Made by a program: the position numbers and the translations under genes. Source: an uncultured bacterium (GTDB lineage Bacteria; Patescibacteriota; Patescibacteriia; JAXHNJ01). Taken from it: a stretch of 42,351 bases of DNA. Below the pieces are notes generated by a model that ran no database searches, was not told the DNA's origin, and saw only the letters and a program-made list of their open reading frames with translations. Of the stretch, positions 24,040-41,848 are shown one piece after another; position 1 is the first letter of the stretch; every line of letters starts with the position of its first letter. The stretch spans positions 1-42,351 of the forward strand of contig CBDUSL010000001.1 in NCBI GenBank assembly GCA_965370265.1, in the 5' to 3' direction.

Positions 24040-24854
24040 TATTTTTTCAAATCCTTTGCTCCTAAATATTTAGCGAAATACTTAATAGCACTGGAAATAT
24101 GAATCCGAGTTGCTTTACTAAAAATACCTTTCAGCCCCGGGCTTTCGGCGGACATTCTTTGGTGATAATGAACGATATCAACGTCACTTAAATAGCAAAC
24201 ACGGTATCCTGCCTGCCAGAATTGCCGGCACCAATCGACATCCTCGAAATAAAGAGTGAAGCGCTCGTCCATAAGTCCAACCTTATCTATTGCTTCCTGG
24301 CGAACGAGCATACAGGCCCCTAAAATCCAATCAACATCATTTATTTTTTCGAAATGATCATCAAGCATTAGATATTTTCTCAGATCTTTTTTAACCCAGG
24401 GTAAGCGTCCTAATGGTGTCCGCCTATACATGGGAGTCATAAATTTGGGAAAACGGTAACAAGAAATCTGCCTTGTTCCGTCAGGATTAATCAATTTGGG
24501 AGCGACTATGCCGACATCAGGGTGATCATCCATAAAAGAGATGAGTTTTTCAATCACACCTTCAAAAATAGTTATATCAGGATTAAGAATCATGACATAT
24601 CGCCCGCTTGATTCTTTGACTCCAAGATTATTACCGGCCGCGCAGCCTCTGTTTACTTTACTTTCTATGAATCGGATATGCGGAAAACTTTCTTTCATCA
24701 TCTTTGCACTGGAATCCTGTGAGTGATTATCAACCACTATAATTTCATAATTTTTCTTTAGCTTAAGCAGTTCGATTCCTTTAATACACTGCCTTAAAAG
24801 ACCTTTAGTTTTGTAATTTAATATTACTACGGATAATTCCATCATGACAGCCAT
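24039..24854 (-). CDS. glycosyltransferase family 2
   Basis: SVVILNYK..IIVVDNHSQD, a DxD-like NPD, and the rhamnosyltransferase-like segment FLYFEDVDWC. Confidence 0.85.
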   Translation of the reverse strand: MAVMMELSVVILNYKTKGLLRQCIKGIELLKLKKNYEIIVVDNHSQDSSAKMMKESFPHIRFIESKVNRGCAAGNNLGVKESSGRYVMILNPDITIFEGVIEKLISFMDDHPDVGIVAPKLINPDGTRQISCYRFPKFMTPMYRRTPLGRLPWVKKDLRKYLMLDDHFEKINDVDWILGACMLVRQEAIDKVGLMDERFTLYFEDVDWCRQFWQAGYRVCYLSDVDIVHYHQRMSAESPGLKGIFSKATRIHISSAIKYFAKYLGAKDLKK

Positions 24855-25855
24855 TTTCTAAAATTATTAGCACTTTTTTTATCCTTTAATATCATTTTTC
24901 TTTTCTTAATCATTTTTGGCAAAAGTTTAAAAAAGTTCAGATATGATTTTAAGGAAGAAAATTCAAAAAGAAGTATGTAAAAAAATCTTTTAAGTTCCCT
25001 CCATGTAATAAATAAAAAATCTTTAAAATAATTTTTCAAAAAATCATTCTTTACCATCAAGAAAAAATGATTTCGGGTTGAATAATAATTTATCATATTA
25101 GATTTTTTTCTGCGGTTCTTTCTTATGGATTTAATATTTTTTACCTCAGTCTGGTCGGCTTGCCTATGGTGATAGGCAAAGGCTTCCGGAATAAATACTG
25201 ATTTTAAGCCATTTATATTCATTCTCCAGGCAAGATCTATATCTTCTTTATAAACAAAAAAATCTTCATCAAAATATTCGTTATTAATATTCAATAATTC
25301 TACATCTTTTTTTCTTAGAAACAGCAAACCTCCGGAGATACCAAAAACATCTTTTTTCTCTTTGAATTGACCGGTATCTTTTTCATTTTCTCCCAAATTT
25401 ATAAAGTTGCGATTTCGGTCGACTTTTATACCCACAGAGTCAATAATATCAGTAAATACAATTTCCTTCAACTCATCAATTTTAAAATGAAATTTGTAAA
25501 TTTTGCCGGTAAAAGCGCTATAAACCTTCATTTTTTCCGCATTTTTGTAAAGTTCAAAGAGATAGTTTTTGGTTAAAATAACATCCGGATTCATAATTAA
25601 AATATAATCGCTTTTGGACAATTTAAGCCCTTGGTTATGAGCCCTTGAATAACCCAGGTTATGGATATTGCGCAGAATTTTTACTTCCGGATAATTTTTT
25701 TCGATATAATCAACCGTTCCGTCATTAGAGCCATTATCAATAACAAGGACTTGAAAATCCTTAAATGACTGGTCAAAAATTGATTTTAGGCAATCCGGCA
25801 GATAAGTAATACTATTCCAGGTAACTATATTAATTGATACTTTTTTTGACTTCAT
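24842..25855 (-). CDS. glycosyltransferase family 2
   Basis: SINIVTWNS..VLVIDNGSNDGT, NPDV, and the FFVYKEDIDLAWR segment. Confidence 0.8.
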   Translation of the reverse strand: MKSKKVSINIVTWNSITYLPDCLKSIFDQSFKDFQVLVIDNGSNDGTVDYIEKNYPEVKILRNIHNLGYSRAHNQGLKLSKSDYILIMNPDVILTKNYLFELYKNAEKMKVYSAFTGKIYKFHFKIDELKEIVFTDIIDSVGIKVDRNRNFINLGENEKDTGQFKEKKDVFGISGGLLFLRKKDVELLNINNEYFDEDFFVYKEDIDLAWRMNINGLKSVFIPEAFAYHHRQADQTEVKNIKSIRKNRRKKSNMINYYSTRNHFFLMVKNDFLKNYFKDFLFITWRELKRFFYILLFEFSSLKSYLNFFKLLPKMIKKRKMILKDKKSANNFRKWLS

Positions 25856-27464
25856 TTGCTTCCGTTAAAAATAAGTAGAAAATTGGGGCAATTATCAGGA
25901 GATAACCGAGTCCCAAAGGGTGATTTAAAAAAGGGGTTGTAAGATGAGTTACAAGCAGGAAAATCAATCCGGCTATTAAAGATTTTGTAAATATATATTG
26001 GTTTATATTTTCTTTAATTTTCTTTAAAACTTTATGGCCATTCCTATAAATAAAATAAATAAAATATAGGTAAAATATTAAACCAAAAAAACCGATTTTT
26101 ACGATGATATCAAGATAAGCCCATTCATAAAGATAAACTTTTATATATTCCACCAATTCCGTCCCTGGGATTAATGATTTAAAAGTTACTAATGTGCCAA
26201 AACCGCTCCCCTGAAGAGGGTTTTCTTTTATTTTTTCCAAAATCGGGTTCATAAGGCTAACTCTGTTTGAAGCCGCCAACTCAGAGGACGGATTTAGCAA
26301 ACTGGTTATTCTTGAGGATAATAAATCCAGACTGGCTGGAGAGACAAGATATAACAAACCAATGGAAATACCTAAAAATAATAAACAGACTATTAATGCT
26401 TGAAATATTTTTCTTTTGGGCAAAGAAAATATTATATAAAGAAAACTGATTATAAAACCAAGCCAAAAACTTCTGGAATAGGATATCAGCAGCACTAATC
26501 CAAAAATAAAAATAAAAAAGAAATTTAAAATTTTACGGTTTAACTTAATCTTTTTAAAAGCGGAATAAGTAATTAATAAAATAAGGTAAATTACGACGTA
26601 AAACTGGCTGGGAGAAAATATTCTAAAAAATCGCCCGCCAATATATGATACTTCCGCTAAACCAAGATCCTTCAGCCAACGGTAAACAGCCGGTTTATCT
26701 TCGGTTATCTCAGTTGCATCAAGGGATAATTTTTCCTCGGCTAACTTGGTCGTTTGGGCTAGTCTCGCATTTTCCGGCAAAGTAGCCAAATTTTTTAATT
26801 CTTCAAGCTGTTTTGATTCTACTTTGGTCGCTGATATAAGTTCATCGGAATATTCAAAAACGCCAAAGTCCAAAAGCAGAATAAAGGTAAATAATGAGAG
26901 AGAAATAACACCAATGGTTAGTACCTTGATAAACTTTATAATATTTTCTTTTTTAAAAAATACGTCAAAGAAAGGGAATATCAAGGCTAAATAAAAATAA
27001 GCGTTAATGTCATAAAAAACAATTTGGTTTGAATTTTTAATCAGTCCATTGATAAAGCCAAACAACAGGAAAATACAAAAAATAGCGAATGGAAGCCAAA
27101 GATTTGAACGAAAGAATTTTATCTCCTTTTTCCTGATAATTCCATAAAGGTAGACAAACATTATAATAAGAAAAATAGCCAGTCGGAGAGAAACAACGTA
27201 GTTAAAAACAGGAAATGAAAAAAGATATCCTTTGCTGCCAATAATGAGTTCAAGAACAGCTATTAAAACCCCATATTCTAATTTTTTGAAAGTCAAAAAA
27301 AGAACGGCTCCTATAATAAGCCAAAAACAAATATAATTTAAACTCGAATTTAAAAAACCGAGGTAAGACAGCAAAAATACTGACATAGTCAGCAGAGAGT
27401 AAAGATATGTTTTTTTATCTTTTAGAAAAATAAGCTCCATAGATTTGAGCTTATAATATAACAC
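25830..27464 (-). CDS. O-antigen ligase/polymerase-like (Wzy_C-type) polytopic membrane protein
   Basis: 544 aa with at least 10 predicted TM helices, a roughly 70-aa soluble insert and a SYSRSFWLG-type loop. Its position is between glycosyltransferase genes. Confidence 0.6.
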   Translation of the reverse strand: MLYYKLKSMELIFLKDKKTYLYSLLTMSVFLLSYLGFLNSSLNYICFWLIIGAVLFLTFKKLEYGVLIAVLELIIGSKGYLFSFPVFNYVVSLRLAIFLIIMFVYLYGIIRKKEIKFFRSNLWLPFAIFCIFLLFGFINGLIKNSNQIVFYDINAYFYLALIFPFFDVFFKKENIIKFIKVLTIGVISLSLFTFILLLDFGVFEYSDELISATKVESKQLEELKNLATLPENARLAQTTKLAEEKLSLDATEITEDKPAVYRWLKDLGLAEVSYIGGRFFRIFSPSQFYVVIYLILLITYSAFKKIKLNRKILNFFFIFIFGLVLLISYSRSFWLGFIISFLYIIFSLPKRKIFQALIVCLLFLGISIGLLYLVSPASLDLLSSRITSLLNPSSELAASNRVSLMNPILEKIKENPLQGSGFGTLVTFKSLIPGTELVEYIKVYLYEWAYLDIIVKIGFFGLIFYLYFIYFIYRNGHKVLKKIKENINQYIFTKSLIAGLIFLLVTHLTTPFLNHPLGLGYLLIIAPIFYLFLTEANEVKKSIN

Positions 27465-27494
27465 AAAAGGCCTATTTAGACAATAAGGCTTATT

Positions 27495-28373
27495 TTACTT
27501 TTCTTTTTTTAGAAAACCAAAAAATTTACTTAAAGCGACCAAGGAGGCCAATAAATAACTTAAGGGAAAAAGAGCCAAAATTATGTAATAAGACCAAGAT
27601 GATTGGTTCTTTTTAAAATAATAAGCCAAACTTTTGTTAAAATTCATTTGGGCTTTTAGAGCCATTAATTGTTTGAAGCTTTCCCCTTTTTGATGGATGA
27701 TTTTAGCTTTATGAAAAAACATTACTTTATATCCGATTTGTTTGACTCTTTTGCAAAAATCAACTTCTTCAAACCAGACAAAAAAATTAGGATCAAAAAA
27801 ACCGACTTTTTCGATAACTTCACGTTTGGTCATTAAAAAAGCGCCCATTACCTGGTCAACTTCTCTGGTTTCCTGATAATTAAAATCTTTCATTAAATAT
27901 TTTCTGATCGGTTTTAAAGAAGGATAAAAATTGTGTATTTTTAAAAGAATTAAGGCTTGAGAAAGCAAGTCCGGCAATCGGCGGCAAGATGATTGAACAG
28001 ACAAATCCGGATTAAGAATTTTACAGCCTAAAACGCCGACCGGCAAATTATTTTTTAGATATAAAAGACAATTTTGGATTGTCTCTTTAAACAATACCGT
28101 GTCTGGGTTAAGAACTAAAAGCCACTTACCTTTAGCCCGGGAAAGACCTTGGTTATTGGCGGCTGCAAATCCTACATTTTTTTGATTGGCTATTAATAAA
28201 TACTCCGGGAAATCATTTTTTACCATTTCCTGGGAATTGTCAGATGAATTATTGTCTACAATTATTACCTCATGACTAACCAAGGCAAATTTCTTAATTG
28301 ACAAAAGACAACGCCTTAAATGATCAGCGACATTCCAAGAGACAATAATAATTGATAATTCAGGCTCATTCAT
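27495..28373 (-). CDS. glycosyltransferase family 2
   Basis: LSIIIVSWN..VIIVDNNSSDNS, NPDT and FFVWFEEVDFCKR, plus a C-terminal TM helix. Confidence 0.85.
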   Translation of the reverse strand: MNEPELSIIIVSWNVADHLRRCLLSIKKFALVSHEVIIVDNNSSDNSQEMVKNDFPEYLLIANQKNVGFAAANNQGLSRAKGKWLLVLNPDTVLFKETIQNCLLYLKNNLPVGVLGCKILNPDLSVQSSCRRLPDLLSQALILLKIHNFYPSLKPIRKYLMKDFNYQETREVDQVMGAFLMTKREVIEKVGFFDPNFFVWFEEVDFCKRVKQIGYKVMFFHKAKIIHQKGESFKQLMALKAQMNFNKSLAYYFKKNQSSWSYYIILALFPLSYLLASLVALSKFFGFLKKEK

Positions 28374-30195
28374 GGTTTAAATTGTATTTATTAAACAGTA
28401 TTTTTTTTGCTTCTTCTTTCGGGACACTTTTAGAAATACCTCCTTTTCTCATCGGGCCGTAAAACAAAACATCTTGAATGGCCAGTCCCTTTCCCCCGTT
28501 TTTAGCGACGTGAAGCCATAAGTCCCAATCCTGAAGTCTGGCCAAATTTTCATCGAAGCCTGGAAATTTATCGGTTCGCAACATACTCATAGTACTGATA
28601 TAATTGAGTTTTTTTAATTTTCGATGGGAAAAAGGCAGAGCCCTGAATTTTTTCCGCCCGAATAAAAAAGCGGAGTAACAAAAATCATACTCGGGGTTCA
28701 TTTCAAGAACTCTGATCATTTTTTCAAAACACGTTGGATAAAGAATAATATCGGCGTCACAAAAAAATAAATATTTCCCCTTTGCTTCTTTTGCCCCTAA
28801 ATTTCTGACCCAGGAAGCCTGATTAGGAATTTCCCCTTCATGTTTTCTTTCAATTATCTTTATATCCTTATATTTGCCCCTTATCTTATCGCTTAAATAA
28901 GAATCCGGACCGTCATTGACCACTATTATTTCAAAATCTTTAAATGTTTGCCTGTAGATATTTTCAAGGCACTTATCGATATATTTATTTACTTTATAGG
29001 CGGGAATAATAATACTAAGGGCCGGTCCGGTTTTATCTTTTTTAATAATTTTTGGCTGATCAATAATATTGGTAAGCTTATGGACCTGCTTATCCCAGTT
29101 AAAAGTGCCGGTTACCCAGCGTTTCCCCTTTTCTCCCATTTCATTTTTTAAATTATCATTAGTTAACAATTTTAGGACGGTATCGGAGATATCTTTAGTA
29201 TTCTCCGGATTAACAGCCAGGCCTGTTTCGTCTTCGATAATAGTCTCCCCTGTTCCTCCGGCCTTTCCAATAATTACCGGAGTCCCCTGCGCCTGGGCTT
29301 CCAAATAAACCAAGCCAAAGCTTTCAATATCTTTTTGCCCCTTCATTTCACGGGTAGGCATAATAAATAGATCTGCCAAATGATAATAAGGGAATTTTAG
29401 AATATCCTTATCTTCAATTGGTCCGGCAAATATGACCTGTTTTTCAACTTGCAATTCTTTAGCTAAATTTACCAAATAATCCTTATCGGGTCCATCGCCG
29501 ACAATTAAATATTTTAAATTTGGCACTTTTTTAAGAATTTCGGGCAATGAACGGATAACGAAATCCTGCCCCTTTCGTTTAACCAGCCTTCCTATAGTCA
29601 GTATTACTTTTTGTCCTTCAAGTCCGTATTTTTTTCTTAACTCATTTTCCCGATTGGGAATATTTTCTGCTTTAATATTTAAGGAAGGGTATATAATAAT
29701 AATCTGAGATTCAAATAAGCCAAGTTCCATAATTTTCTTTTTCATAAAATGCGTATTGGCAATTACATAATCGGCGTTTTTAAGATTTAAAATCATTAAT
29801 TTTTTACTAAACCAGCCTTTTTGGGGGATAAGCGTATCAACTCCGTGGGTATAAACAAGATATGGAAGGCCAAATAATTTTTTTAGCATTAAGCCAACCG
29901 TCACTGCGTTAAAATAATGGCCAAACTGTAAATATTCTATATCATTATCTTTAACCAATTTGCGCACTTTCCAGATAAGAGGCAGCCATGAGGGTTTAAA
30001 AAAGCGCCAAGAAAAAAACGGCTGGCGGATTACTATTCTTTCATAATTTTTATCAAAATCTTCCGACCCTTTTGTTTTGTCGACCAGAATAATTATTTTA
30101 TCTTCCGGAAGCTTAAGACACAAATTTTTGAGATAATTTTCAATGCCCCCTATTTTAGGCGGAAAAAAGTATGATATAAGTAGTGATTTTTTCAT
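28366..30195 (-). CDS. bifunctional fusion: N-terminal GT4 (GT-B) plus C-terminal GT2 (GT-A) glycosyltransferase
   Basis: Residues about 1-385 carry the GT4 motif ESFGLVYLEAQAQGTPVI. Residues about 400-609 carry the GT2 motifs LSIIIPAYK..IIVVNDGPD..FCDADI. Confidence 0.8.
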   Translation of the reverse strand: MKKSLLISYFFPPKIGGIENYLKNLCLKLPEDKIIILVDKTKGSEDFDKNYERIVIRQPFFSWRFFKPSWLPLIWKVRKLVKDNDIEYLQFGHYFNAVTVGLMLKKLFGLPYLVYTHGVDTLIPQKGWFSKKLMILNLKNADYVIANTHFMKKKIMELGLFESQIIIIYPSLNIKAENIPNRENELRKKYGLEGQKVILTIGRLVKRKGQDFVIRSLPEILKKVPNLKYLIVGDGPDKDYLVNLAKELQVEKQVIFAGPIEDKDILKFPYYHLADLFIMPTREMKGQKDIESFGLVYLEAQAQGTPVIIGKAGGTGETIIEDETGLAVNPENTKDISDTVLKLLTNDNLKNEMGEKGKRWVTGTFNWDKQVHKLTNIIDQPKIIKKDKTGPALSIIIPAYKVNKYIDKCLENIYRQTFKDFEIIVVNDGPDSYLSDKIRGKYKDIKIIERKHEGEIPNQASWVRNLGAKEAKGKYLFFCDADIILYPTCFEKMIRVLEMNPEYDFCYSAFLFGRKKFRALPFSHRKLKKLNYISTMSMLRTDKFPGFDENLARLQDWDLWLHVAKNGGKGLAIQDVLFYGPMRKGGISKSVPKEEAKKILFNKYNLNHE

Positions 30196-30196
30196 T

Positions 30197-31654
30197 TTAA
30201 CGATTTTTTAAAGATTTTAGCAGGGAAATTATTTCTTGTCTCGTAATCACCCTAATAACTAAAATCATAATTACGTAAATAATTACTCCAATTGGAATTA
30301 AAATAAGGAAGTTTATAAAATCTTTCAACCAAAATATAGTGCCGGACATTACCAAAGAGGCCATTAAGCTTCTTAAAAACCAGGAAATTATAACCTTTTT
30401 TTGGTATATCAAATATTTTGAAGTTTGATAATAACCAAGGATAAAAAGAAATATAGCGGAAGATAAGGCGGCAATTGAGGCCCCGATATGGTTAAATTTT
30501 GGGATGAGAATGAGATTTACAACAATATTAAAAACAACGGTCAGGCCCAGATTAATTGTATTGGTTTTTTGCCGGTTACTGGCGTTAAGGGAAGAACTGA
30601 GAATAAAGTTAACAAAAATAAATACTAAGCCCAAAATAGATATTCTAAAGGCAGGGATGGAGTTCGCGAAATCATCAGTAAATAAAACAGTTATTTTATC
30701 GGCCAAGACAAACGCCCCTAAAGAAATCGGGAGGGCAATAACCATTAAATAGCGAAAAGCGTTCTGGATAGTTTGGGTGAGAAGTTCTTTAGATTCAATA
30801 TAAAAACGGGATAAGGCCGGATAAATACTGTTATTGAAAGCGAGGGGGATAAACTGGATAGCGTAAGTTAATTTATAAGCGACCGAATACCAACCGACAT
30901 ATTGATCACCGTTTGAAGACCTTTTTAAAAACGAAAGGAGCAGAATATCGATGTAAGCGTAAATTTTAATAAAGATGCCAGCCAAAAAGAAGGGCATAGA
31001 AAGTTTTAAAAGGTGCCTGATAACCCCAAAATCAAGCTTATAGGCCGGTCTGGCTTCTGTTTTTCTAAGGATGCTTACCAGAGCGTAGATAAAATTGCCT
31101 AAAGCTCCAAGCAGGACGGCCACTCCCAAAACAATCGGATTATGGGTAAATTGTAAGGCGGTCACCCCGGCTCCAACCACTAAAAATTGGTAAATAATGG
31201 TGCCGATAGCCTCATATTTTAGATTTTGGTAACCTCTAAATATGGCGAATAGACTCAAGCTAAAAGACTCAAAAATCATAACCAGAGCCACCAAATAAAC
31301 CAGGTTTCTTGTTTCAGGAGGGTATCTTAATAAATTAATCGAAACAAAAATGAGCAAAAGAGAAATTAAGGCAAAATAAAACTTGACCGTAAAAACGGCC
31401 GAGAGATATTTTTTCGCCTTCTCTTTGGTTCTGGCTACTTCACGAATTAGAACCGGATTAAGGCCCAGATCGACTAAGATGCCAAAAATAGTAACAAAAG
31501 AAACAGCAAAAACAAATTTGCCGGTATTAATATAACCGATATATCGCGCATAATAAATAAAGTAACCAAATGAGATTACTTTCTGAACGGTATAGGCAAT
31601 TGTTAATAATAAGGTATTACGGGAAACTTTATTTGATCTGATATTTTCAGACAA
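30197..31654 (-). CDS. wzx: Wzx-type polysaccharide flippase (MOP superfamily)
   Basis: 485 aa with about 12-14 TM helices and a polysaccharide-biosynthesis-protein-like N-terminus. It heads a glycosyltransferase cluster. Confidence 0.7.
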   Translation of the reverse strand: MSENIRSNKVSRNTLLLTIAYTVQKVISFGYFIYYARYIGYINTGKFVFAVSFVTIFGILVDLGLNPVLIREVARTKEKAKKYLSAVFTVKFYFALISLLLIFVSINLLRYPPETRNLVYLVALVMIFESFSLSLFAIFRGYQNLKYEAIGTIIYQFLVVGAGVTALQFTHNPIVLGVAVLLGALGNFIYALVSILRKTEARPAYKLDFGVIRHLLKLSMPFFLAGIFIKIYAYIDILLLSFLKRSSNGDQYVGWYSVAYKLTYAIQFIPLAFNNSIYPALSRFYIESKELLTQTIQNAFRYLMVIALPISLGAFVLADKITVLFTDDFANSIPAFRISILGLVFIFVNFILSSSLNASNRQKTNTINLGLTVVFNIVVNLILIPKFNHIGASIAALSSAIFLFILGYYQTSKYLIYQKKVIISWFLRSLMASLVMSGTIFWLKDFINFLILIPIGVIIYVIMILVIRVITRQEIISLLKSLKNR

Positions 31655-31676: not shown

Positions 31677-32171
31677 TTATCTTTTCTGCCACTGAGGAGC
31701 GCGCCTGGCTCCTTTTAAGCCAAATTTTTTTCGTTCTTTTACTCTCGGGTCTCTTCGAAGAAGACCTTCAGCTTTAAGAACTTTCCGGTTTTTAGAGTCC
31801 AGTAATTCTAAAACTCTGGCTAGTCCCAGTTTAACCGCATCAGCTTGACCTCTTTTGCCTCCGCCTTTAACACGGATACTTATTTTTCCATAATCTTTTA
31901 TGCCTAGAACAGCAAGTGGTTTATAAACATTAATTTGAAATTCCAGGGTTGGAAAATATTTTTTATATTCTTTATCGTTTACTATAAATTCTTTTTCACC
32001 TTTTTTATACAATCTCACTCTGGCGACGGAGCATTTTCTTCTGCCAACCGCAAAAAGATAGGTCCGACGAATCACTTTTTTCTTTTCTTCTTGGGGAATT
32101 GTTTCAACCCTCTTAACCGTTTTTTTGGCCTTTTTTTGCGACTTAACCGTTTTTTTGGCTTTGGTTGGCAT
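31677..32171 (-). CDS. rpsI: 30S ribosomal protein S9 with about 33-aa lysine-rich N-terminal extension
   Basis: GRRKCSVARVRL, GGGKRGQADAV and RRDPRVKERKKFGLKGARRAPQWQKR. Confidence 0.9.
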   Translation of the reverse strand: MPTKAKKTVKSQKKAKKTVKRVETIPQEEKKKVIRRTYLFAVGRRKCSVARVRLYKKGEKEFIVNDKEYKKYFPTLEFQINVYKPLAVLGIKDYGKISIRVKGGGKRGQADAVKLGLARVLELLDSKNRKVLKAEGLLRRDPRVKERKKFGLKGARRAPQWQKR

Positions 32172-32177
32172 TATACT

Positions 32178-32540
32178 TTATTTAATGGTTAATCTTTTTA
32201 AACTTTTTTTGCGCAATTTATTAACCGGCAACATATTATAAACTGCTTTTTTAACCGCTTTTTCCGGAGTTTCGTCAATAAGTTTTGAAAATTTGGTTTT
32301 TCTTATCCCGCCTGGATAACCAGTGTGTCGGTAATAAATTTTATTTTCTCTTTTTTTGCCCGTGATTTTTACCTCTTTAATATTAATAACTTCAATAAGT
32401 CTATTGTCTTCCAGATGAGGCTGATAGTCGGGTTTGTCTTTGCCCATCAATAGAACAGCCAGTTTACTGGCTAATCGGCCAAAGCTAACTCCTTGAGCAT
32501 CAATTATTAATTTTTCTGGTTCTTTTTTCATGCTAAACAA
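32178..32540 (-). CDS. rplM: 50S ribosomal protein L13 (short form)
   Basis: IIDAQGVSFGRLASKLAVLLMGK, YYRHTGYPGG and MLPVNKL. The start may be the Met 3 codons downstream. Confidence 0.9.
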   Translation of the reverse strand: MFSMKKEPEKLIIDAQGVSFGRLASKLAVLLMGKDKPDYQPHLEDNRLIEVINIKEVKITGKKRENKIYYRHTGYPGGIRKTKFSKLIDETPEKAVKKAVYNMLPVNKLRKKSLKRLTIK

Positions 32541-32880
32541 ATTCTATTAAAACTATTGGCGCGTTATCCCCGGCCCTGTTTTTCAATTTAATTATCCGGG
32601 TGTAGCCTCCCTTTCGATCTTTATATTGAGGGGATATATCTTTTATTAATTTATTGGACGACTTCAAGCTAATATGCCTTTCCAAATATCTTTTGGTTTG
32701 AAGGTTATCTTCGCCTGATTTTGTAATTAATTTTTCAATAAACGATTTTAAAACCTTAGCTTTGGCAGAGGTGGTTTTTATTTTTCCTTTAAGAATAAAA
32801 TCATTGGCAAGATTTCGAATTAACATCCTTCTTTGGTCGCTTTTACGGCCTAATATCTTTTTTTTCTTACGGTGTCTCAT
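32533..32880 (-). CDS. rplQ: 50S ribosomal protein L17
   Basis: MRHRKKKKILGRKSDQRRMLIRNLA and GGYTRIIKL..RAGDNAP. Confidence 0.9.
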   Translation of the reverse strand: MRHRKKKKILGRKSDQRRMLIRNLANDFILKGKIKTTSAKAKVLKSFIEKLITKSGEDNLQTKRYLERHISLKSSNKLIKDISPQYKDRKGGYTRIIKLKNRAGDNAPIVLIEFV

Positions 32881-32883
32881 ATT

Positions 32884-33768
32884 TTATGCGGTTGATTCGG
32901 TTTTTTTAGGTCTTCCCCTTTTCTTTTTTTCTTTTGTTTCCCCGCCTTCTTCCGAGTCTTCTTTTTTAGGTTCTGATTTCTCTTCCTTGCTTTCTTCTTT
33001 TTCCTCTTTTTCTTTATCGCTTTCGTCTTTAATTGGGGCAAGGGGTTTATCCTCTTTTTCTTTATCGCTCTTTTCTACTTTGGATTTAAGATTTTTCACA
33101 AAATTAAAATGTTCAACCAAAATGACGGAGGCCATTTTAAGAGCCTCCTCCGGAGTAATTGTCCCGTCGGTACTTACATTTAGAATCAAGCGCTCATAAT
33201 TGGTCATCTGGGCCACACGAACATTTTCTATATCAAAATTTACATTTTTTACGGGGGTGTAGATACTGTCTATAGCAATAGTGCCAATATCCAACTGTTC
33301 ATCTTCCCTTGTTTCAACCGTTACATAACCGCGTCCGGAACCGATGGTAAGCTCCATGTCTAATTCGGAGTCCTTGCCGGTTAATGTGGCTATATGCAGC
33401 TTTTTACTGACTACCTCGACATCGGATTTGGTTTTTATATCACCGGCCGTTACCGCTTTTTCGCCTTTAACATGTAAATTTACTTTTACCGGCTCTTCTC
33501 CATGAAAATTGAATTTTAATTTTTTTAAATTTAAAATAATAGTAACTACGTCTTCTTTTACATGAGAGATACTGGAAAATTCATGATCAACTCCTTTTAT
33601 CTTTACGGCCTGTACAGCCGCTCCCGGTAAAGATGATAAAAGGACCCGGCGCAGAGCGTTTCCGATCGTATTTCCATATCCCGGGTAAAGAGGTTCAAAA
33701 ATAAAAACTTTGCCGTTTTCCTGGCCTTTTTTAACTTCTATTTTCGACGGTAGGGGAAATTTTTCCAT
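32884..33768 (-). CDS. rpoA: DNA-directed RNA polymerase alpha subunit: N-terminal domain only, plus an E/K-rich tail ending in an AT-hook
   Basis: The NTD is recognisable (GYGNTIGNALRRVLLSSLPG ... PEEALKMASVILVEHF). Residues about 227-294 are low-complexity D/E/K/S ending in KKKRGRPKKTESTA, and no HhH alpha-CTD motif is present. Confidence 0.9.
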   Translation of the reverse strand: MEKFPLPSKIEVKKGQENGKVFIFEPLYPGYGNTIGNALRRVLLSSLPGAAVQAVKIKGVDHEFSSISHVKEDVVTIILNLKKLKFNFHGEEPVKVNLHVKGEKAVTAGDIKTKSDVEVVSKKLHIATLTGKDSELDMELTIGSGRGYVTVETREDEQLDIGTIAIDSIYTPVKNVNFDIENVRVAQMTNYERLILNVSTDGTITPEEALKMASVILVEHFNFVKNLKSKVEKSDKEKEDKPLAPIKDESDKEKEEKEESKEEKSEPKKEDSEEGGETKEKKKRGRPKKTESTA

Positions 33769-33793: not shown

Positions 33794-34417
33794 TTATTTC
33801 GAGTAAAATTCGACGATCAGCTGGGTCTGAATACCCAAATTTAATTGCTTTTCGTCCGGTAAATTCACAAACTGGCCCTTCAAAGTTTTTTTATCTAGAC
33901 TCATCCATTCCGGAACTTCATGTTTGTTTATTGATTTTATTAGTTCTAAAAAATATTTATTCTTCATGGATTTTTCACGAATAGTAATAATATCCTTAAC
34001 ATCTAAAAGATACGAAGGAATGTTTACTTTTTTATTATTAACCAGAAAATGACCGTGATTAACCGTCTTCCTGGCCTGAATCCGTGATTTAGCCATTCCC
34101 AGACGATAAATTACATTATCAAGCCTTCTCTCCAAAAACTGGAGAAAAATATCGCCGGTATTCCCTTTTTTGGCCATCGCTTTTTTCATATAACCCTTAA
34201 ACTGCGCTTCGGACAAACCGTACATGTGTCTTACTTTTTGTTTTTCCTGGAGGTGGACTCCATAACTGGAAAGTCTGGGTCTTCTTTTCTGGCCATGAGC
34301 GCCAGGCGGATAATTACGTTTGACCATGGCGCACTTTGGGGTATAACAACGATCCCCTTTCAAAAAAAGTTTTTCTCCGGCTCTTCGGCATTTTTTACAT
34401 TTTGCGTCTATATTCAT
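33794..34417 (-). CDS. rpsD: 30S ribosomal protein S4
   Basis: Zinc-ribbon-like CKKCRR..C..C N-terminus, YGVHLQEKQKVR and an S4 domain (RLDNVIYRLGMAKSR). Confidence 0.95.
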   Translation of the reverse strand: MNIDAKCKKCRRAGEKLFLKGDRCYTPKCAMVKRNYPPGAHGQKRRPRLSSYGVHLQEKQKVRHMYGLSEAQFKGYMKKAMAKKGNTGDIFLQFLERRLDNVIYRLGMAKSRIQARKTVNHGHFLVNNKKVNIPSYLLDVKDIITIREKSMKNKYFLELIKSINKHEVPEWMSLDKKTLKGQFVNLPDEKQLNLGIQTQLIVEFYSK

Positions 34418-34420
34418 AAA

Positions 34421-34807
34421 TTATACCCTTCTCACTTTTTTTGGTCTTGGCCCATTATGAGGAATAGGGGTACGGTCTTTAATACTGGTAATAGTCAGTC
34501 CATTGGCGTAAAGGGCTCTTACAGCCGATTCGCGTCCGGACCCGACTCCTTTTACAAAAACTTCGACAGATTTTAAACCAAAGTCTTTTACTTTTTCCAC
34601 CGCATCTCTAACGATTATTCCAGCTGCGTAAGGAGTGGCTTTTTTAGGGCCTTTAAATCCGACTTGTCCGGCCGAGGAAGAAGCAAGAACATTGCCGGAG
34701 GGATCGGTCAGGGTTACAATTGTATTATTATAGGTGGACATAATAAAAGCTTTGCCTTGGGTGACAAACTTTTTAACTTTTTTCTTTTTTTTGGGTTTAG
34801 CAGCCAT
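34421..34807 (-). CDS. rpsK: 30S ribosomal protein S11
   Basis: [31 protein letters not shown] and [11 protein letters not shown]. Confidence 0.95.
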
Positions 34808-36586: not shown

Positions 36587-38383
36587 TTATTTTTCTAAGA
36601 CTGCCTTTATTCTTCTTACCCCTTTTGAGGAGGATTTTTCGGATATAATTTTAAAGTGTTTAAGTTCCCCTGTATTTTTTACATGCGGACCGGCGCAAAT
36701 TTCTTCGGAGAAACCGCCAATCGAATATACTTTAACTTTTTCGGGATATTTTTCTTTGAAAAAAGCAAACGCGCCGCTTTCAACCGCTTTTTTATAAGAC
36801 ATCTCTTCAAATGTTACCGGCATGTTATCCTTTATAACCTGGTTTATAATATCTTCTATTTTCTTTTTTTCCTCATCGGTCAATTTATCCCCATGAGAAA
36901 AATCAAATCTTAATCTTTCTTCGCTCAAATCGGAGCCCATCTGCTTGACGTGGTCGCCCAGTACTTTTCTTAAAGCGGTATGAAGCAAATGAGTAGCGGT
37001 GTGCTCTTTAGCCACCTTCTCCCCTAGTTTTCCGGCTCCGCCGAATTTTTTTTCGGCCCCGGCTCTGGATATTTTTTGATGTTCTTCAATTTTTTTCTGG
37101 AATTCCTTTTCATCAAACTGGTAGCCTTTTTTTTTGATTAAGTTTGGAGTAAGACCATAGGTGGAATAAAGTTGAAATGCTTCCTCAGCGCTAATCTTTC
37201 GCGAAGAAGGCTGATCAAGGGTTTTTTTCACTTTCTTTTTTTTGCCCATTTTTTCAAAAACCTTATCTACTTCCAGTTTTAAAACTTTACCGTAATTATC
37301 CCTTTCACCTTTTAGTAACTCTAAAATCTTTTTTTTATTTTTCTTTAATTCCGGATAAATATCCGAGTAAAGGTTTAAAACCACATCAATCAGAGGAGAC
37401 AAATCAAAGGCAGGAGATTCAAACTGGTCAATTAGGCGCCGATAAATACGGCGAAGAATATAACCCTGTTCTTTGTTCGAAAATTCCACTCCTTCCGAAA
37501 TAAGAAAAATACAACCTTTAAGATGGTCGGAAATTATTCTTAAGCTTTTATTCTTTTCTATCTCGCTTTGAAGTTTTTCGATGTTTTTGTCTTTTTTTGC
37601 TTCTTCAATTATCGGAGCAAAAAGATCCGTTTCAAAAAGAGAATCCTTTTTTTGAAGAATCATGGCCAGTCTTTCAAAACCCATACCGGTGTCAATATTC
37701 TTGGTCGGGAGATCATTAAAGTTTCCTTTGGCATCAAGAAAATACTGCATAAAAACCAGGTTCCATATTTCCACGAAGCGCCCGCAGGGACAGTTTGGTT
37801 TGCAGCTGTCATCATCGGAACACGGCTTGCCGGTCAAGTCATAGTGTATTTCCGAAGACGGTCCGCAAGGGCCGGACTTGCCGGGGGGGCCCCACCAATT
37901 GAATTCCCGTCCGAACTCATAAATTTTATCTTCGTTTATATATTTCTGCCAAACTTTAATCGCTTCAAAATCCTTGACTACTTCATCATCACCTTCAAAA
38001 ACGGTAGCGTAAATTCTTTTTTTATCCAATTTTAGCTCTTTGACCAGAAATTCATAGGCATATTCAATCGCTTTCTCCTTAAAATAACCGCCAATAGAAA
38101 AGTTCCCCATCATTTCAAAAAAAGTAAGGTGAACTTCGTCGCCAACTGATTCAATATCCGAGGTACGAAAACATTTCTGAATTGAAGTTAAGTTCCGGTT
38201 TTTAAAATCCCTTTTTATTGAGGTTTCACCCAGAAAATATGGCTTAAACTGCTGCATCCCGGCGGTGGTCAAAAGAACCGAAGGGTCGTTATCTGGGACC
38301 AAAGAAGAAGAGGAAACAAGCGTATGCTTCTTCTTTTTGGAGAAATACTTAATAAATTTTTCCCTGATTTTTTCAGACTTCAT
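36587..38383 (-). CDS. alaS: alanyl-tRNA synthetase, short form (catalytic, tRNA-recognition and editing domains; no C-Ala domain)
   Basis: SSSLVPDNDPSVLLTTAGMQQFKPYFLG, FEMMGNFS, and editing-domain HTATHLL ... CAGPHV. The start is set at the Met of MKSEKIREKF (ATG at 38383) by homology with AlaRS N-termini. Confidence 0.9.
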   Translation of the reverse strand: MKSEKIREKFIKYFSKKKKHTLVSSSSLVPDNDPSVLLTTAGMQQFKPYFLGETSIKRDFKNRNLTSIQKCFRTSDIESVGDEVHLTFFEMMGNFSIGGYFKEKAIEYAYEFLVKELKLDKKRIYATVFEGDDEVVKDFEAIKVWQKYINEDKIYEFGREFNWWGPPGKSGPCGPSSEIHYDLTGKPCSDDDSCKPNCPCGRFVEIWNLVFMQYFLDAKGNFNDLPTKNIDTGMGFERLAMILQKKDSLFETDLFAPIIEEAKKDKNIEKLQSEIEKNKSLRIISDHLKGCIFLISEGVEFSNKEQGYILRRIYRRLIDQFESPAFDLSPLIDVVLNLYSDIYPELKKNKKKILELLKGERDNYGKVLKLEVDKVFEKMGKKKKVKKTLDQPSSRKISAEEAFQLYSTYGLTPNLIKKKGYQFDEKEFQKKIEEHQKISRAGAEKKFGGAGKLGEKVAKEHTATHLLHTALRKVLGDHVKQMGSDLSEERLRFDFSHGDKLTDEEKKKIEDIINQVIKDNMPVTFEEMSYKKAVESGAFAFFKEKYPEKVKVYSIGGFSEEICAGPHVKNTGELKHFKIISEKSSSKGVRRIKAVLEK

Positions 38384-38389
38384 TATATC

Positions 38390-38418
38390 ATTATAGAAAA
38401 ATTCCCCGAATAAATCAA
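38390..38418 (-). promoter_or_regulatory. putative alaS promoter with leaderless geometry
   Basis: Minus strand reads TTGATT, a 17-nt spacer, then TATAAT, then exactly 6 nt (GATATA) before the ATG at 38383. Confidence 0.45.
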
Positions 38419-38466
38419 TCAATAAAACATTTGACAAATTTAATAAAAGAGATAAGAATAAAAGGG

Positions 38467-39761: not shown

Positions 39762-39790
39762 TTGACATTTTCATAAATATAAACTATTAT
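39762..39790 (+). promoter_or_regulatory. near-consensus promoter of the 130-aa orphan gene
   Basis: TTGACA, a 17-nt spacer, then TATTAT. An AAGGAG SD at 39813-39818 lies just upstream of the ATG at 39821. Confidence 0.6.
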
Positions 39791-39820: not shown

Positions 39821-40213
39821 ATGATGTCTTTTGAAAGAATGAAAGAGGCAAAACTGGAGGGGTATCGCGGACCTCTTTTTCCCACGGGTATTGATGACCT
39901 CAATAAGGCTTTCCGGGATACGCCGATCAATGAGTTTTGCTGGCTTGAGGAAACAGTAAGATATTTGTCGTCGTACGTCGGCGTTACTCGTCCGCAAACA
40001 TCTGACGGCTACCATTGGTTCGTGGCCATTACCTTGAATGCCAAAAATGGCTTTTTAGTAGTTGCTTTCCCGCACAAACCAACCAGCCGTTCGATTGCTT
40101 TCTACTTTCAGGGGGATGTTACCCCCGAAGAAATAAAAGAGGTAGTTGAAAAACTGACCGCTCATATCGGTCAAATTCCATATGTTGTGGGTCAACCAAA
40201 GCACATTCGTTAA
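39821..40213 (+). CDS. hypothetical soluble protein (130 aa), no recognisable family
   Basis: ORF with a consensus promoter, a strong SD and its own terminator. G+C is visibly higher than in the flanking genes. Confidence 0.6.
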   Translation: MMSFERMKEAKLEGYRGPLFPTGIDDLNKAFRDTPINEFCWLEETVRYLSSYVGVTRPQTSDGYHWFVAITLNAKNGFLVVAFPHKPTSRSIAFYFQGDVTPEEIKEVVEKLTAHIGQIPYVVGQPKHIR

Positions 40214-40838: not shown

Positions 40839-40891
40839 GGATTGACAAATATTAAAATATGTATAAATAGTTATACAGGTTTTGTCAATCC
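40839..40891. repeat. nested inverted repeat at the 3' end of the membrane operon
   Basis: Perfect 11-bp arms GGATTGACAAA / TTTGTCAATCC enclose a perfect 7-bp palindrome TGTATAA-atag-TTATACA. The right arm overlaps the TGA stop of 40885..41154. Confidence 0.55.
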
Positions 40892-41154
40892 TCTTTTTTC
40901 TTTCGCCAGTGTTTTTTTTCTATATAAACCAGCCGCCACCAAAAAAACCCAAGGAAAAATCCGCCTCCGGCCCCAATAACAAGCAACCCTACCTGAAGCC
41001 AAATGGGGAGAGCGCAGGCTCCTTTGCCAAAAATTGAATTCCAATTAATATTATCTGAATATCTAATATAAAGAACTTCAATCCCTGCGTGAAGAATAAA
41101 ACTTAGAAGAATACCTAAAATGGTACTCAATAAAACATAGAATGATTTTTTCAT
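40885..41154 (-). CDS. hypothetical membrane protein (89 aa)
   Basis: Two to three hydrophobic helices and a basic C-terminus. Its start lies 1 nt after the upstream stop. Confidence 0.5.
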   Translation of the reverse strand: MKKSFYVLLSTILGILLSFILHAGIEVLYIRYSDNINWNSIFGKGACALPIWLQVGLLVIGAGGGFFLGFFWWRLVYIEKKHWRKKKED

Positions 41155-41155
41155 T

Positions 41156-41848
41156 TTAAAAAAATGAATAAACAGTTAAAGCGATCCCGCCGATAATTCC
41201 CAGATATCCCAAAACTTTTAAAACAGCCGCCGACTGGCCAACCGATTTTTCTACCTGTTCTTCAGTTTTATAGCTGATAATAAAATCCCCCTCCCCTTTC
41301 TGGATAGCCATATCCTCACTGGTTTTAACCGCCTGACCGTAAACATATACCTGCAGACCTAAAGACAAGGCTGATTCTTCGGCTCGGTAATTATCGTTGG
41401 CCACAAAGTTAAATATCTTACCCATGATTGAATCATCCGGGGATTCACCCCGCCCGATAAACTTTTCGCCAAGAGAACGTGCTTCAATTTTTGCCTTGTC
41501 GGGCAGAATTTTTACCTTTCCGGTTTCATCTTCCACAAAAAAGGGAATACTTTCTTCATCAGATTTTACCCTTTCCCAATTATGAGTAATTCTCCCCTCT
41601 TTATCTCTTTCCTCCACTTCCTTTTCCAGTTCATACTCATAGTAAACGCAGTCTTGCTTGGAAAAAGGAGTTTGAAGGGGGTTGTCCGCGGTTATTTTCC
41701 CCTGAACCTCAACCTGGTTTCCTTCAATTATTTCTTTAACCGGCCCACTTTTAGTTTTGGCCATTTCACTTTTTTTCTCTTTTTTCTTCCCGCTTAAATA
41801 AACAAAAAGCGCTCCGACGAGCAATGTTATAACTCCTGTCCAGATCAT
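41156..41848 (-). CDS. GIDE-like (PF12483-type) protein bracketed by N- and C-terminal TM helices
   Basis: 230 aa with a TM-soluble domain-TM architecture. The segment NPLQTPFSKQDCVYYEYE resembles the bacterial GIDE-family core as recalled from memory, not from a search. Confidence 0.45.
   Translation of the reverse strand: MIWTGVITLLVGALFVYLSGKKKEKKSEMAKTKSGPVKEIIEGNQVEVQGKITADNPLQTPFSKQDCVYYEYELEKEVEERDKEGRITHNWERVKSDEESIPFFVEDETGKVKILPDKAKIEARSLGEKFIGRGESPDDSIMGKIFNFVANDNYRAEESALSLGLQVYVYGQAVKTSEDMAIQKGEGDFIISYKTEEQVEKSVGQSAAVLKVLGYLGIIGGIALTVYSFF

What the first reader, a model, noticed from the sequence alone, without database searches (positions are those of the whole stretch)
32887..33090. 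RpoA lacks the alpha-CTD; it is replaced by an acidic/lysine-rich tail ending in a canonical AT-hook
The alpha N-terminal domain aligns up to ...PEEALKMASVILVEHFNFV (about residue 225), the position where the E. coli NTD ends. The remaining roughly 68 residues are low-complexity: KSKVEKSDKEKEDKPLAPIKDESDKEKEEKEESKEEKSEPKKEDSEEGGETKEKKKRGRPKKTESTA. The helix-hairpin-helix alpha-CTD is absent. The tail ends in K-R-G-R-P-K-K (32902-32922), a textbook AT-hook core (R-G-R-P flanked by basic residues). AT-hooks bind the minor groove of A/T tracts. That is the same DNA feature the alpha-CTD reads at UP elements. In this AT-rich genome the AT-hook could therefore replace UP-element recognition, at the cost of the usual docking surface for class I activators.
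Basis: partly seen in the sequence, partly recalled or inferred. Interest (0 to 1): 0.65.

Follow-up and report, generated by a model that had tools for sequence, protein, structure and literature searches.

The report
RNA polymerase alpha with AT-hook tail
This uncultured Patescibacteria bacterium, like many of its relatives, has an RNA polymerase alpha subunit that has lost its usual DNA- and activator-binding C-terminal domain and instead ends in a floppy acidic tail tipped with a strictly conserved "AT-hook", a short motif known to grip A/T-rich DNA.

Summary
rpoA (32884-33768, minus strand, 294 aa) encodes a complete alpha N-terminal domain (residues 1-~226), a ~55-residue disordered Glu/Lys-rich linker and a C-terminal K-K-K-R-G-R-P-K-K (residues 281-289).

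No alpha-CTD is detectable by Pfam, by a custom CTD profile in any of the six frames of the window, or within +-3 kb in 50 CTD-less relatives. The identical protein was assembled from at least 5 independent samples, so it is not an artefact.

The hook is under protein-level selection:
- G-R-P is invariant in 51-67 orthologs whose NTDs are only ~45-60% identical.
- The linker cannot be aligned between them.
- Hook codons vary synonymously.
- 84% of all Arg in these tails lies in the hook.
- Shuffling predicts 0.04 of 67 tails with the motif.

CTD loss is widespread in Patescibacteria and has several outcomes: AT-hook, generic K/R patch, acidic-only tail, or almost no tail. Doudnabacteria and most Paceibacteria-type lineages keep a true CTD.

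The functional reading, a tethered minor-groove contact upstream of -35 that replaces the UP-element contact, is plausible by analogy with WhiB7 and CarD but untested. The link to AT-rich genomes does not generalise: hook-bearing loci span 33-55% GC.

One paper mentions CTD loss in Parcubacteria in one line. I found no description of the AT-hook replacement. I rate it a new variant of a known kind.

The parts
32884..33768 (-). rpoA coding sequence (294 codons plus TAA stop): CTD-less RNA polymerase alpha subunit
   Evidence: ORF list. NCBIfam NF003519 scores 297.3 bits (cutoff 277) and TIGR02027 scores 275.6 bits (cutoff 227.8). Pfam PF01000 and PF01193. The identical protein is found in at least 5 independent assemblies.
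33091..33768 (-). alpha N-terminal domain, residues 1-226 (dimerisation and beta/beta' assembly platform)
   Evidence: Pfam PF01193 at 25-221 and PF01000 at 55-171. AlphaFold pLDDT >90 up to ~226, with the last helix at 206-226. Aligns to solved alpha NTDs, e.g. E. coli constructs 9-229.
32929..33090 (-). linker, residues 227-280: Glu/Lys/Asp/Ser-rich and predicted disordered; length and sequence are hypervariable among orthologs
   Evidence: pLDDT <50 for 233-283, with no secondary structure. In orthologs the linker is 20-67 aa (median 47), cannot be aligned, and has a net charge mostly <=0. CTD-bearing relatives already have a long acidic linker (median 29 aa, 23% D/E).
32902..32928 (-). AT-hook, residues 281-289, K-K-K-R-G-R-P-K-K
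   Evidence: K283, G285, R286, P287 and K289 are invariant, and K282 and R284 are >=90% conserved, in 38 aligned orthologs. Logo from 51 orthologs. Synonymous codon turnover at every position. 84% of all tail Arg lies in the core. Pfam AT_hook scores 15.3 bits against a 17.4-bit cutoff.
32887..32901 (-). five C-terminal residues T-E-S-T-A after the hook (variable in orthologs, 2-7 residues after the R-G-R-P-K core)
32533..32880 (-). rplQ (ribosomal protein L17), which starts 3 nt after the rpoA stop; this leaves no room for a downstream CTD exon
   Evidence: Pfam annotation of the same gene on sibling contigs. In relatives rplQ follows within tens of bases in nearly all loci.
33794..34417 (-). 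rpsD (S4), upstream neighbour; part of the canonical infA-rpmJ-rpsM-rpsK-rpsD-rpoA-rplQ order

Best explanation
SHOWN: this rpoA encodes an alpha subunit made of three parts. These are the assembly-competent N-terminal domain, a ~55-residue intrinsically disordered acidic/lysine linker, and a single canonical AT-hook (KKKRGRPKK) five residues from the C-terminus. The helix-hairpin-helix alpha-CTD is absent. This architecture is the normal, selected state in a sizeable group of Patescibacteria (Kuenen-, Veblen-, Buchanan- and some Uhrbacteria, plus many unnamed lineages).

INFERRED mechanism: alpha is a dimer, so each RNA polymerase carries two flexible arms, each tipped with a hook. The Arg-Gly-Arg-Pro core inserts into the narrow minor groove of A/T-rich DNA upstream of the -35 element. 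It could reach roughly -40 to -90, given a 45-55-residue linker. This adds a weak, avidity-driven DNA contact that stabilises promoter complexes. That is the same task the alpha-CTD performs on UP elements and on non-specific upstream DNA.

The acidic linker probably keeps the arm off the DNA and may shield the hook intramolecularly, as proposed for the acidic tails of HMGA proteins. The CTD surface used by class I activators is gone, so regulation in these organisms must rely on other contacts.

Evolutionary inference: the long acidic linker predates CTD loss. The CTD was deleted more than once. The short terminal basic motif, easily generated from A-rich codons, was then fixed and in this lineage sharpened into a true AT-hook.
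For: Architecture.

Real gene, not an artefact: identical protein in at least 5 assemblies; 0 of 50 CTD-less loci have CTD-like sequence in any frame, against 30 of 30 positive controls.

Selection on the hook:
- G, R and P are invariant in 51 orthologs, and the hook is always 2-7 residues from the C-terminus after an unalignable linker.
- The hook is kept in orthologs only 45-50% identical overall, e.g. L038, L049, L052, L069.
- Arg uses 5 codons from both codon families, and Gly and Pro use all 4.
- 84% of tail Arg lies in the core and 50 of 67 tails have no other Arg, with 895 Lys against 27 Arg outside the core. This fits the specific need for Arg in minor-groove insertion.
- The motif is nearly exclusive to RpoA C-termini in 500 kb of related DNA.

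The linker predates the loss: CTD-bearing relatives have a median 29-aa linker with 23% D/E.

Precedents for RNAP-tethered AT-hooks:
- Myxococcus CarD combines an RNAP-binding domain with an acidic region and four AT-hooks (PMC2919716).

Anecdotal: the best intergenic promoter-like site in the window (39762-39790, 11/12 match) has AAAAAA at about -42 to -48.
Against: - No binding or promoter data exist. The A-tract observation is a single case in a 35% GC window.
- The Pfam AT_hook score is below the gathering threshold (15.3 vs 17.4 bits), and only 17 of 38 orthologs reach E<=1.
- Single AT-hooks are weak binders (established knowledge of HMGA).
- Close relatives carry decayed hooks, plain K/R patches, acidic-only tails or 228-234-aa 'stub' alphas. 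A/T-specific reading is therefore dispensable or replaceable in the wider group.
- Hook-bearing loci reach 55% GC.
- Canonical AT-hooks can also bind RNA (PMC4615771).
Confidence: 0.5

Rival explanations
1. The tail is a generic electrostatic tether. The terminal basic cluster binds any nucleic acid backbone non-specifically (upstream DNA or the nucleoid), and G-R-P is only one acceptable way to build it. There is no A/T or UP-element specificity.
For: Relatives in the same NTD clade carry PKKKTRKKK-type patches at the same terminal position (median 7 residues from the C-terminus), and intermediate forms occur, such as KKRGKAKK, KKSRPKK, KKGRTKK and KKRGRKPK. On the NTD tree, hook and basic states are interspersed. 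The literature on CarD cites functional equivalence of HMGA-like and histone-H1-like basic domains (reference list seen; that paper itself could not be read).
Against: Where the hook is present it is invariant at G, R and P and uses Arg exactly there while Lys is used everywhere else. Pure charge selection would not maintain this across ~50% NTD divergence with synonymous turnover.
Confidence: 0.27
2. The hook binds something other than promoter DNA. Candidates are nascent or structured RNA (as extended and some canonical AT-hooks do), an acidic protein partner, or its own acidic linker as a regulatory switch.
For: RNA binding by AT-hooks is documented (PMC4615771). The linker is strongly acidic, with net charge down to -20 in orthologs, and could pair with the hook.
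Against: The motif has the short canonical flanks and not the extended symmetric basic flanks described for the RNA-preferring type; beyond about 5 residues upstream the flanks are acidic. Its position on alpha, where the CTD linker normally emerges towards upstream DNA, favours DNA (inference from solved RNAP structures aligned).
Confidence: 0.12
3. The tail is a functionless remnant: a leftover linker after CTD deletion, with low-complexity sequence drifting neutrally in an AT-rich genome.
For: The linker itself is hypervariable and compositionally simple. Some relatives have lost the tail entirely.
Against: The nine-residue hook is conserved where the linker is not. Synonymous sites have turned over. 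Shuffling predicts 0.04 of 67 tails with the motif.
Confidence: 0.03
4. The finding is an artefact or a nucleotide-level signal. Either a frameshift or misassembly hides a CTD, or the conserved AAAAGGGGAAGA is a Shine-Dalgarno-like element for the downstream rplQ and not a protein motif.
For: The hook codons are purine-rich and lie ~30 nt upstream of the rplQ start.
Against: No CTD is found in any frame of the window or of 50 CTD-less loci. The identical protein is found in at least 5 assemblies. Hook codons differ freely at synonymous sites (e.g. CGC GGT CGG CCC against AGG GGA AGA CCT), and the distance to rplQ varies from 2 to more than 500 nt.
Confidence: 0.01

Closest known systems
Canonical bacterial alpha subunit (E. 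coli, B. subtilis or T. thermophilus RpoA) with alpha-CTD reading UP elements
   Same: The NTD is orthologous (NCBIfam equivalog cutoffs passed; aligns to solved alpha NTDs). The gene context is the same. It has a flexible linker carrying a C-terminal DNA-contact module, present in two copies per enzyme. The proposed target is the A/T minor groove upstream of -35.
   Different: There is no helix-hairpin-helix CTD. The module is a 9-residue disordered motif and not an ~85-residue folded domain. The linker is about three times longer and acidic. There is no surface for class I activators. The abstract of PMC4495994 calls the alpha subunit's sequence 'well conserved throughout the Eubacteria', which this lineage contradicts.
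WhiB7 (Actinobacteria): a sigma-A region 4-bound activator with a C-terminal AT-hook
   Same: [quoted passage not shown] This is the best functional precedent.
   Different: WhiB7 is a dissociable, redox-sensing Fe-S regulator that acts at a specific regulon. Here the hook is part of the core enzyme and would act at all promoters. There is no homology outside the motif.
Myxococcus xanthus CarD (RNAP-binding N-domain + acidic region + four AT-hooks, HMGA-like)
   Same: A bacterial RNAP-associated protein in which a highly acidic stretch adjoins AT-hooks (PMC2919716; PMC4374960). In related CarD proteins the AT-hook domain can be replaced by a Lys-rich H1-like domain, which parallels the hook/K-patch interchange seen here.
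   Different: CarD is an accessory factor with four hooks, whereas alpha has one hook per chain. PMC2919716 describes CarD and its Stigmatella ortholog as the only known prokaryotic proteins with HMGA-like domains. The RpoA tails extend that list in a much wider group.
Eukaryotic HMGA1/HMGA2
   Same: The core is R-G-R-P-K-K. By my recollection of the HMGA1 sequence this is identical to its third hook. The motif sits in intrinsically disordered context and is associated with an acidic segment (PMC4482583).
   Different: HMGA proteins have three hooks and a C-terminal acidic tail and are free chromatin proteins. Here there is one hook, the acidic segment is N-terminal to it, and it is fused to a polymerase subunit.
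CTD-less alpha homologues: the archaeal D and eukaryotic Rpb3/AC40 subunits; alpha of the endosymbionts Hodgkinia and Tremblaya; some chloroplast alphas
   Same: These retain only the assembly domain. PMC8321222 reports CTD loss in Hodgkinia and Tremblaya and, in one sentence, 'also in Parcubacteria'.
   Different: Those cases are described as plain erosion. Here a new, conserved DNA-binding-type motif occupies the end of the retained linker. The source cited for Parcubacteria (PMC4508563) does not mention RNA polymerase in its text.

Membership tests
Bacterial RNA polymerase alpha subunit (RpoA) | N-terminal assembly domain: RNA_pol_L dimerisation fold with the RpoA insert domain | tested here: met
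   PF01193 E=1.3e-23 and PF01000 E=4.7e-32. NF003519 scores 297.3 bits (cutoff 277) and TIGR02027 scores 275.6 bits (cutoff 227.8). The AlphaFold model of the NTD is confident.
Bacterial RNA polymerase alpha subunit (RpoA) | Position in the alpha operon between rpsD and rplQ | tested here: met
Bacterial RNA polymerase alpha subunit (RpoA) | C-terminal helix-hairpin-helix domain (PF03118, RNA_pol_A_CTD) | tested here: not met
   No hit at E<=10. The custom CTD HMM gives a best E of 2.1 in six frames. The HMM recovers 30 of 30 CTD-bearing relatives and 0 of 50 CTD-less ones. The protein is an RpoA ortholog with a non-canonical architecture.
AT-hook motif (HMGA-type; Pfam PF02178) | G-R-P tripeptide core preceded by Arg (R-G-R-P) | tested here: met
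   Residues 284-287. G, R and P are invariant in orthologs.
AT-hook motif (HMGA-type; Pfam PF02178) | Core flanked on both sides by Lys/Arg | tested here: met
   K281-K283 lie upstream and K288-K289 downstream. Positions -3 to -1 and +4 to +5 are K/R (occasionally P) in all 51 orthologs.
AT-hook motif (HMGA-type; Pfam PF02178) | Embedded in an intrinsically disordered segment | tested here: met
   pLDDT <50 for 233-283 and 291-294, with no secondary structure after residue 226. This is a prediction only.
AT-hook motif (HMGA-type; Pfam PF02178) | Profile score above Pfam's gathering threshold | tested here: not met
   15.3 bits against a 17.4-bit cutoff, E=0.017. 17 of 38 orthologs match at E<=1, with the best at 0.0046. 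A 13-position model gives little power for a single hook, so this lowers certainty without excluding membership.
AT-hook motif (HMGA-type; Pfam PF02178) | Binds the minor groove of A/T-rich DNA | not testable with these tools
   Requires EMSA, NMR or footprinting.
Extended AT-hook (RNA-preferring type, PMC4615771) | Additional basic residues placed symmetrically at a distance on both sides of G-R-P | tested here: not met
   Beyond about 5 residues upstream, the residues are predominantly Glu/Asp, and the protein ends 2-7 residues after the core. The definition was taken from the abstract seen and from my own knowledge of that paper.
Functional analogue of alpha-CTD/UP-element recognition | Contact with A/T-rich DNA at about -40 to -60 that stimulates transcription | not tested
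   The only evidence is one anecdotal A-tract upstream of a predicted promoter. No TSS data or whole genomes were available.

The most novel reading that the evidence does not exclude
A large branch of Patescibacteria has rebuilt the upstream-DNA-reading arm of the core RNA polymerase. The folded alpha-CTD was discarded, and a eukaryote-type AT-hook on a long acidic tether now reads the A/T minor groove upstream of -35. The tail state (AT-hook, plain K/R patch or none) would then define distinct promoter architectures and an activator-poor mode of regulation across the radiation. This would be the first AT-hook built into a bacterial core polymerase subunit, and a natural, lineage-wide alpha-CTD replacement experiment.
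Probability: 0.35. Interest if true: 0.8.

Novelty: new variant of a known kind. Interest (0 to 1): 0.6.

Why it matters
The alpha-CTD is treated as a universal feature of bacterial transcription. It reads UP elements at strong promoters such as rRNA promoters and is the docking site for class I activators such as CRP.

Here a whole, very abundant bacterial radiation repeatedly dispenses with it. One large sub-lineage has fixed a nine-residue AT-hook in its place, which has three consequences:
1. It changes what counts as the conserved core of bacterial RNA polymerase.
2. It predicts that regulation in these organisms cannot use CTD-dependent activation.
3. It offers a minimal, transplantable upstream-DNA-contact module. 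Its effect could be tested directly by swapping it for the CTD in E. coli or B. subtilis alpha.

It also matters for building expression tools for Patescibacteria. [quoted passage not shown]

Tried and rejected
1. Hidden or split CTD: rejected. There was no hit in six frames of the window or of 50 CTD-less loci +-3 kb. A CTD encoded elsewhere in the genome could not be checked because only 42 kb is available.
2. Assembly or frameshift artefact: rejected.
3. Nucleotide-level (Shine-Dalgarno-like) conservation of the hook codons: rejected by synonymous turnover and variable spacing to rplQ.
4. Composition artefact of a K/E-rich tail: rejected by shuffling and Arg localisation.
5. Link between the hook and genomic AT-richness: not supported.
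6. Single origin of CTD loss or of the hook: the neighbour-joining tree of the 224-aa NTD gives about 8 and 9 state changes. That tree is too weakly resolved to count events, so I claim only 'more than one loss is likely'.
7. Promoter evidence: the consensus scan gives 51 promoter-like sites against 28.9 expected. One good intergenic promoter has an upstream A-tract and two others are unremarkable. There are too few promoters for any statistic. I considered a cross-locus comparison of upstream A/T content and dropped it, because there are too few operon starts in +-3 kb loci, no TSS data, and GC is a confounder.
8. Literature: ten full-text searches found no description of an AT-hook on RpoA and no paper combining CTD, Patescibacteria and RNA polymerase. 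The only statement of CTD loss in Parcubacteria (PMC8321222) cites a paper whose text does not mention the polymerase.
9. Organism identity: the cluster look-up gave no name for the window's protein. The closest named relatives are only 'Patescibacteria group bacterium'.
10. Rfam and tRNA scans of the window found nothing.
11. A hook-only protein search of the 5.8-billion-sequence database was considered and not run. A 9-residue motif cannot reach a meaningful E-value there.
Full report
WHAT IS THERE

On the minus strand, 32884..33768 is a 294-codon ORF flanked by rpsD (33794..34417) and rplQ (32533..32880, starting 3 nt after the stop). It sits in the canonical order infA-rpmJ-rpsM-rpsK-rpsD-rpoA-rplQ-rplM-rpsI. 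The product passes the NCBIfam rpoA equivalog cutoffs (NF003519 297.3 vs 277 bits; TIGR02027 275.6 vs 227.8 bits), but it aligns only to model positions ~1-240 of 298-340.

Pfam finds only the two NTD families (PF01193 at 25-221; PF01000 at 55-171). There is no RNA_pol_A_CTD even at E<=10. AT_hook gives a sub-threshold match at 281-292 (15.3 bits, cutoff 17.4). Solved alpha subunits align to residues ~5-242 and never beyond. AlphaFold, run with 38 orthologs, models residues 1-226 at pLDDT >90, ending in helix 206-226. It gives pLDDT <50 and no secondary structure for 233-283.

Residues 227-294 occupy 32887-33090, and K283-R-G-R-P-K-K289 occupies 32902-32922.

IS IT REAL AND NON-RANDOM?

The gene is real:
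- A CTD profile built from CTD-bearing Patescibacteria finds nothing in the six-frame translation of the window (best E=2.1).
- The same profile, iterated, recovers 30 of 30 CTD-bearing species representatives and 0 of 50 CTD-less ones in any frame within +-3 kb. rplQ follows within tens of bases in nearly all of them.
- The identical 294-aa protein occurs on at least 5 independently assembled contigs from different samples.

The motif is not a by-product of composition:
- The RpoA C-terminus is the only [RK]GRP-type motif in the whole 42 kb six-frame translation.
- It accounts for 12 of 14 occurrences in ~500 kb of related loci.
- Shuffling the window's tail yields the motif in 15 of 20,000 trials. 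For 67 orthologous tails the expected number with the motif is 0.04.

CONSERVATION

All of the 120 closest database proteins that carry a source name are named as Patescibacteria (one only as 'bacterium'); most carry no name. Of these, 51 end in the hook, 49 in a Lys/Arg patch without G-R-P, 19 keep a real CTD and 1 has an acidic tail.

In the hook class the logo is K-K-K-R-G-R-P-K-K, with G, R and P invariant. The core lies 2-7 residues from the C-terminus. The preceding linker is 20-67 residues (median 47), cannot be aligned, and is usually net negative, down to -20. Hook-bearing orthologs include sequences only 45-50% identical to the window's protein, such as Kuenenbacteria L038, L049 and L052.

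At the DNA level every hook position shows synonymous turnover. Arg uses AGG, AGA, CGC, CGG and CGT. Gly and Pro use all four codons. The distance to rplQ varies. Selection therefore acts on the peptide and not on a nucleotide signal.

Arg is used almost only in the hook. 84% of all tail Arg lies in the five-residue core and 50 of 67 tails have no other Arg, against 895 Lys. This is the expected pattern if the Arg side chains have a specific role such as minor-groove insertion. Pure charge selection would not produce it.

DISTRIBUTION

Eighty GTDB species representatives were classified by the CTD HMM and by motif:

| Tail state | Loci | Named examples |
|---|---|---|
| True CTD | 30 | Doudnabacteria; Moran-, Portnoy-, Azam-, Wildermuthbacteria and other Paceibacteria-type lineages |
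| K/R patch | 24 | Kerfeld-, Uhr-, Komeili-, Nealsonbacteria; a Minisyncoccota MAG |
| AT-hook | 12 | Kuenen-, Veblenbacteria; unnamed Patescibacteria; one 'Parcubacteria' MAG |
| Acidic-only tail | 7 | Microgenomatus |
| Stub, 228-234 aa, essentially no tail | 7 | one Uhrbacteria MAG and unnamed lineages |

Among the 150 nearest 50%-identity cluster representatives found with the NTD alone, 85 keep a CTD, 25 have a basic patch and 4 have the hook. Many of the remainder are evidently chimeric gene calls.

NCBI places Kuenen- and Veblenbacteria in the Parcubacteria group of Patescibacteria. A neighbour-joining tree of the NTD groups the window with a mostly CTD-less assemblage in which hook, patch, acidic and stub states are interspersed. 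A few CTD losses also fall inside the Paceibacteria-type group. The tree is too weak to count events, but more than one loss is likely.

Intermediate motifs link the hook and the plain patches: KKRGKAKK, KKSRPKK, KKGRTKK and KKRGRKPK. CTD-bearing relatives already have an unusually long, acidic linker (median 29 aa, 23% D/E). The tail is therefore best read as the retained linker plus a newly fixed terminal motif.

WHAT IT MOST LIKELY DOES

Shown: the architecture is NTD + disordered acidic linker + canonical AT-hook sequence, under purifying selection, with two copies per enzyme.

Inferred: the hooks contact the A/T minor groove of DNA upstream of -35. This would provide the weak, avidity-based upstream contact normally supplied by the alpha-CTD.

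Two bacterial precedents show that an AT-hook tethered to RNA polymerase works this way:
- Myxococcus CarD joins an RNAP-binding domain to an acidic region plus four AT-hooks (PMC2919716).

Several points count against a strict 'UP-element replacement':
- There is no functional or promoter evidence. One predicted promoter has an upstream A-tract and others do not.
- Relatives make do with generic basic patches or nothing.
- Hook-bearing loci range from 33% to 55% GC, while CTD-keeping Patescibacteria average 40%.
- AT-hooks can also bind RNA (PMC4615771).

I put about 0.5 on the tethered minor-groove promoter contact, 0.27 on a non-specific electrostatic tether, 0.12 on another ligand, and only a few percent on no function or artefact.

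COMPARISON WITH WHAT IS KNOWN, AND NOVELTY

The protein is an RpoA ortholog that fails one classical defining feature, the CTD. Its terminal motif meets the sequence definition of an AT-hook but not Pfam's score threshold.

CTD-less alphas are described for the endosymbionts Hodgkinia and Tremblaya. PMC8321222 adds in one sentence that the loss 'is also present in Parcubacteria'. The paper it cites does not mention the polymerase. No paper in the searchable library combines CTD, Patescibacteria and RNA polymerase. None describes an AT-hook on RpoA. The library lacks most subscription journals, so prior description elsewhere cannot be excluded.

I classify the finding as a new variant of a known kind. 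It is a lineage-typical alpha subunit in which the CTD is replaced by a conserved AT-hook.

VERDICT

Interest is 0.6. The absence of the CTD from a major bacterial radiation, with a selected eukaryote-type DNA hook in its place, would surprise many transcription specialists and can be tested directly. For now the mechanism rests on analogy.

Noticed in passing
L022 (Uhrbacteria), L037, L046, L048, L080, L081, L084: rpoA at about 3001-3700 in each locus: Seven species-representative Patescibacteria encode 'stub' alpha subunits of 228-234 aa that end 8-10 residues after the NTD (e.g. ...LKELQYES). They have no linker, no basic motif and no CTD in any frame nearby. This bacterial alpha is as minimal as the archaeal D / eukaryotic Rpb3 core.
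   Followed up: partly
L008 (Candidatus Microgenomatus auricola), L032, L033, L041, L077: These CTD-less alphas have purely acidic tails (e.g. RIETGEAEATGESVTSETEGTDTEPAETTESEPASSNE) and no basic cluster at all. This is the opposite charge to the hook and patch classes, and the DNA-tether idea does not explain it.
   Followed up: no
window 36587-38437 (-): The alanyl-tRNA synthetase is only 616 aa. Pfam finds the catalytic core (tRNA-synt_2c) and the second additional domain, which ends at residue 610. Bacterial AlaRS is usually about 870 aa (my recollection), so the C-terminal oligomerisation/C-Ala region seems to be missing.
   Followed up: no
window 19909-31654 (-): Directly downstream of the ribosomal protein/rpoA operon and on the same strand lies a long surface-polysaccharide cluster. 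It contains a Wzx/MurJ-like flippase, a fused GT4+GT2 glycosyltransferase of 609 aa, several GT2 enzymes, a Wzy_C O-antigen-ligase-like protein and a DUF4012 protein, with mreB embedded at 21100-22107.
   Followed up: no
window 41156-41848 (-): A 230-aa protein matches the GIDE domain (PF12483, annotated as 'E3 ubiquitin ligase', E=1e-22). The two neighbouring ORFs (39821-40213 +, 40885-41154 -) have no Pfam match.
   Followed up: no
window 31677-32171 (-), 34421-34807 (-), 32533-32880 (-): Ribosomal proteins S9, S11 and L17 carry Lys-rich N-terminal stretches (MPTKAKKTVKSQKKAKKTVKR..., [14 protein letters not shown]..., MRHRKKKKILGRK...). Lys-rich extensions seem common in this genome. However, none of them contains a G-R-P hook.
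   Followed up: partly
window 32762-33199 (+) and 32877-33041 (-): Two long ORFs overlap the rpoA tail in other frames (145 aa antisense; 54 aa in another frame of the same strand). They are by-products of the purine-rich low-complexity coding sequence and not genes. They could mislead gene callers.
   Followed up: partly
P0121, P0122, P0145: Some database 'proteins' of 526-664 aa contain the alpha NTD twice or preceded by ~220-340 extra residues. They are probably fused gene calls (e.g. rpsD-rpoA) or tandem duplications. They were not examined.
   Followed up: no
L011, L030, L033, L037 and other 'binchicken' or SRP-derived records: Several GTDB representative records titled 'uncultured Gammaproteobacteria', 'Bdellovibrionales' or 'Candidatus Saccharibacteria' carry Patescibacteria-type rpoA loci 50-57% identical to the window. 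The record titles appear to be unreliable as taxonomy.
   Followed up: no
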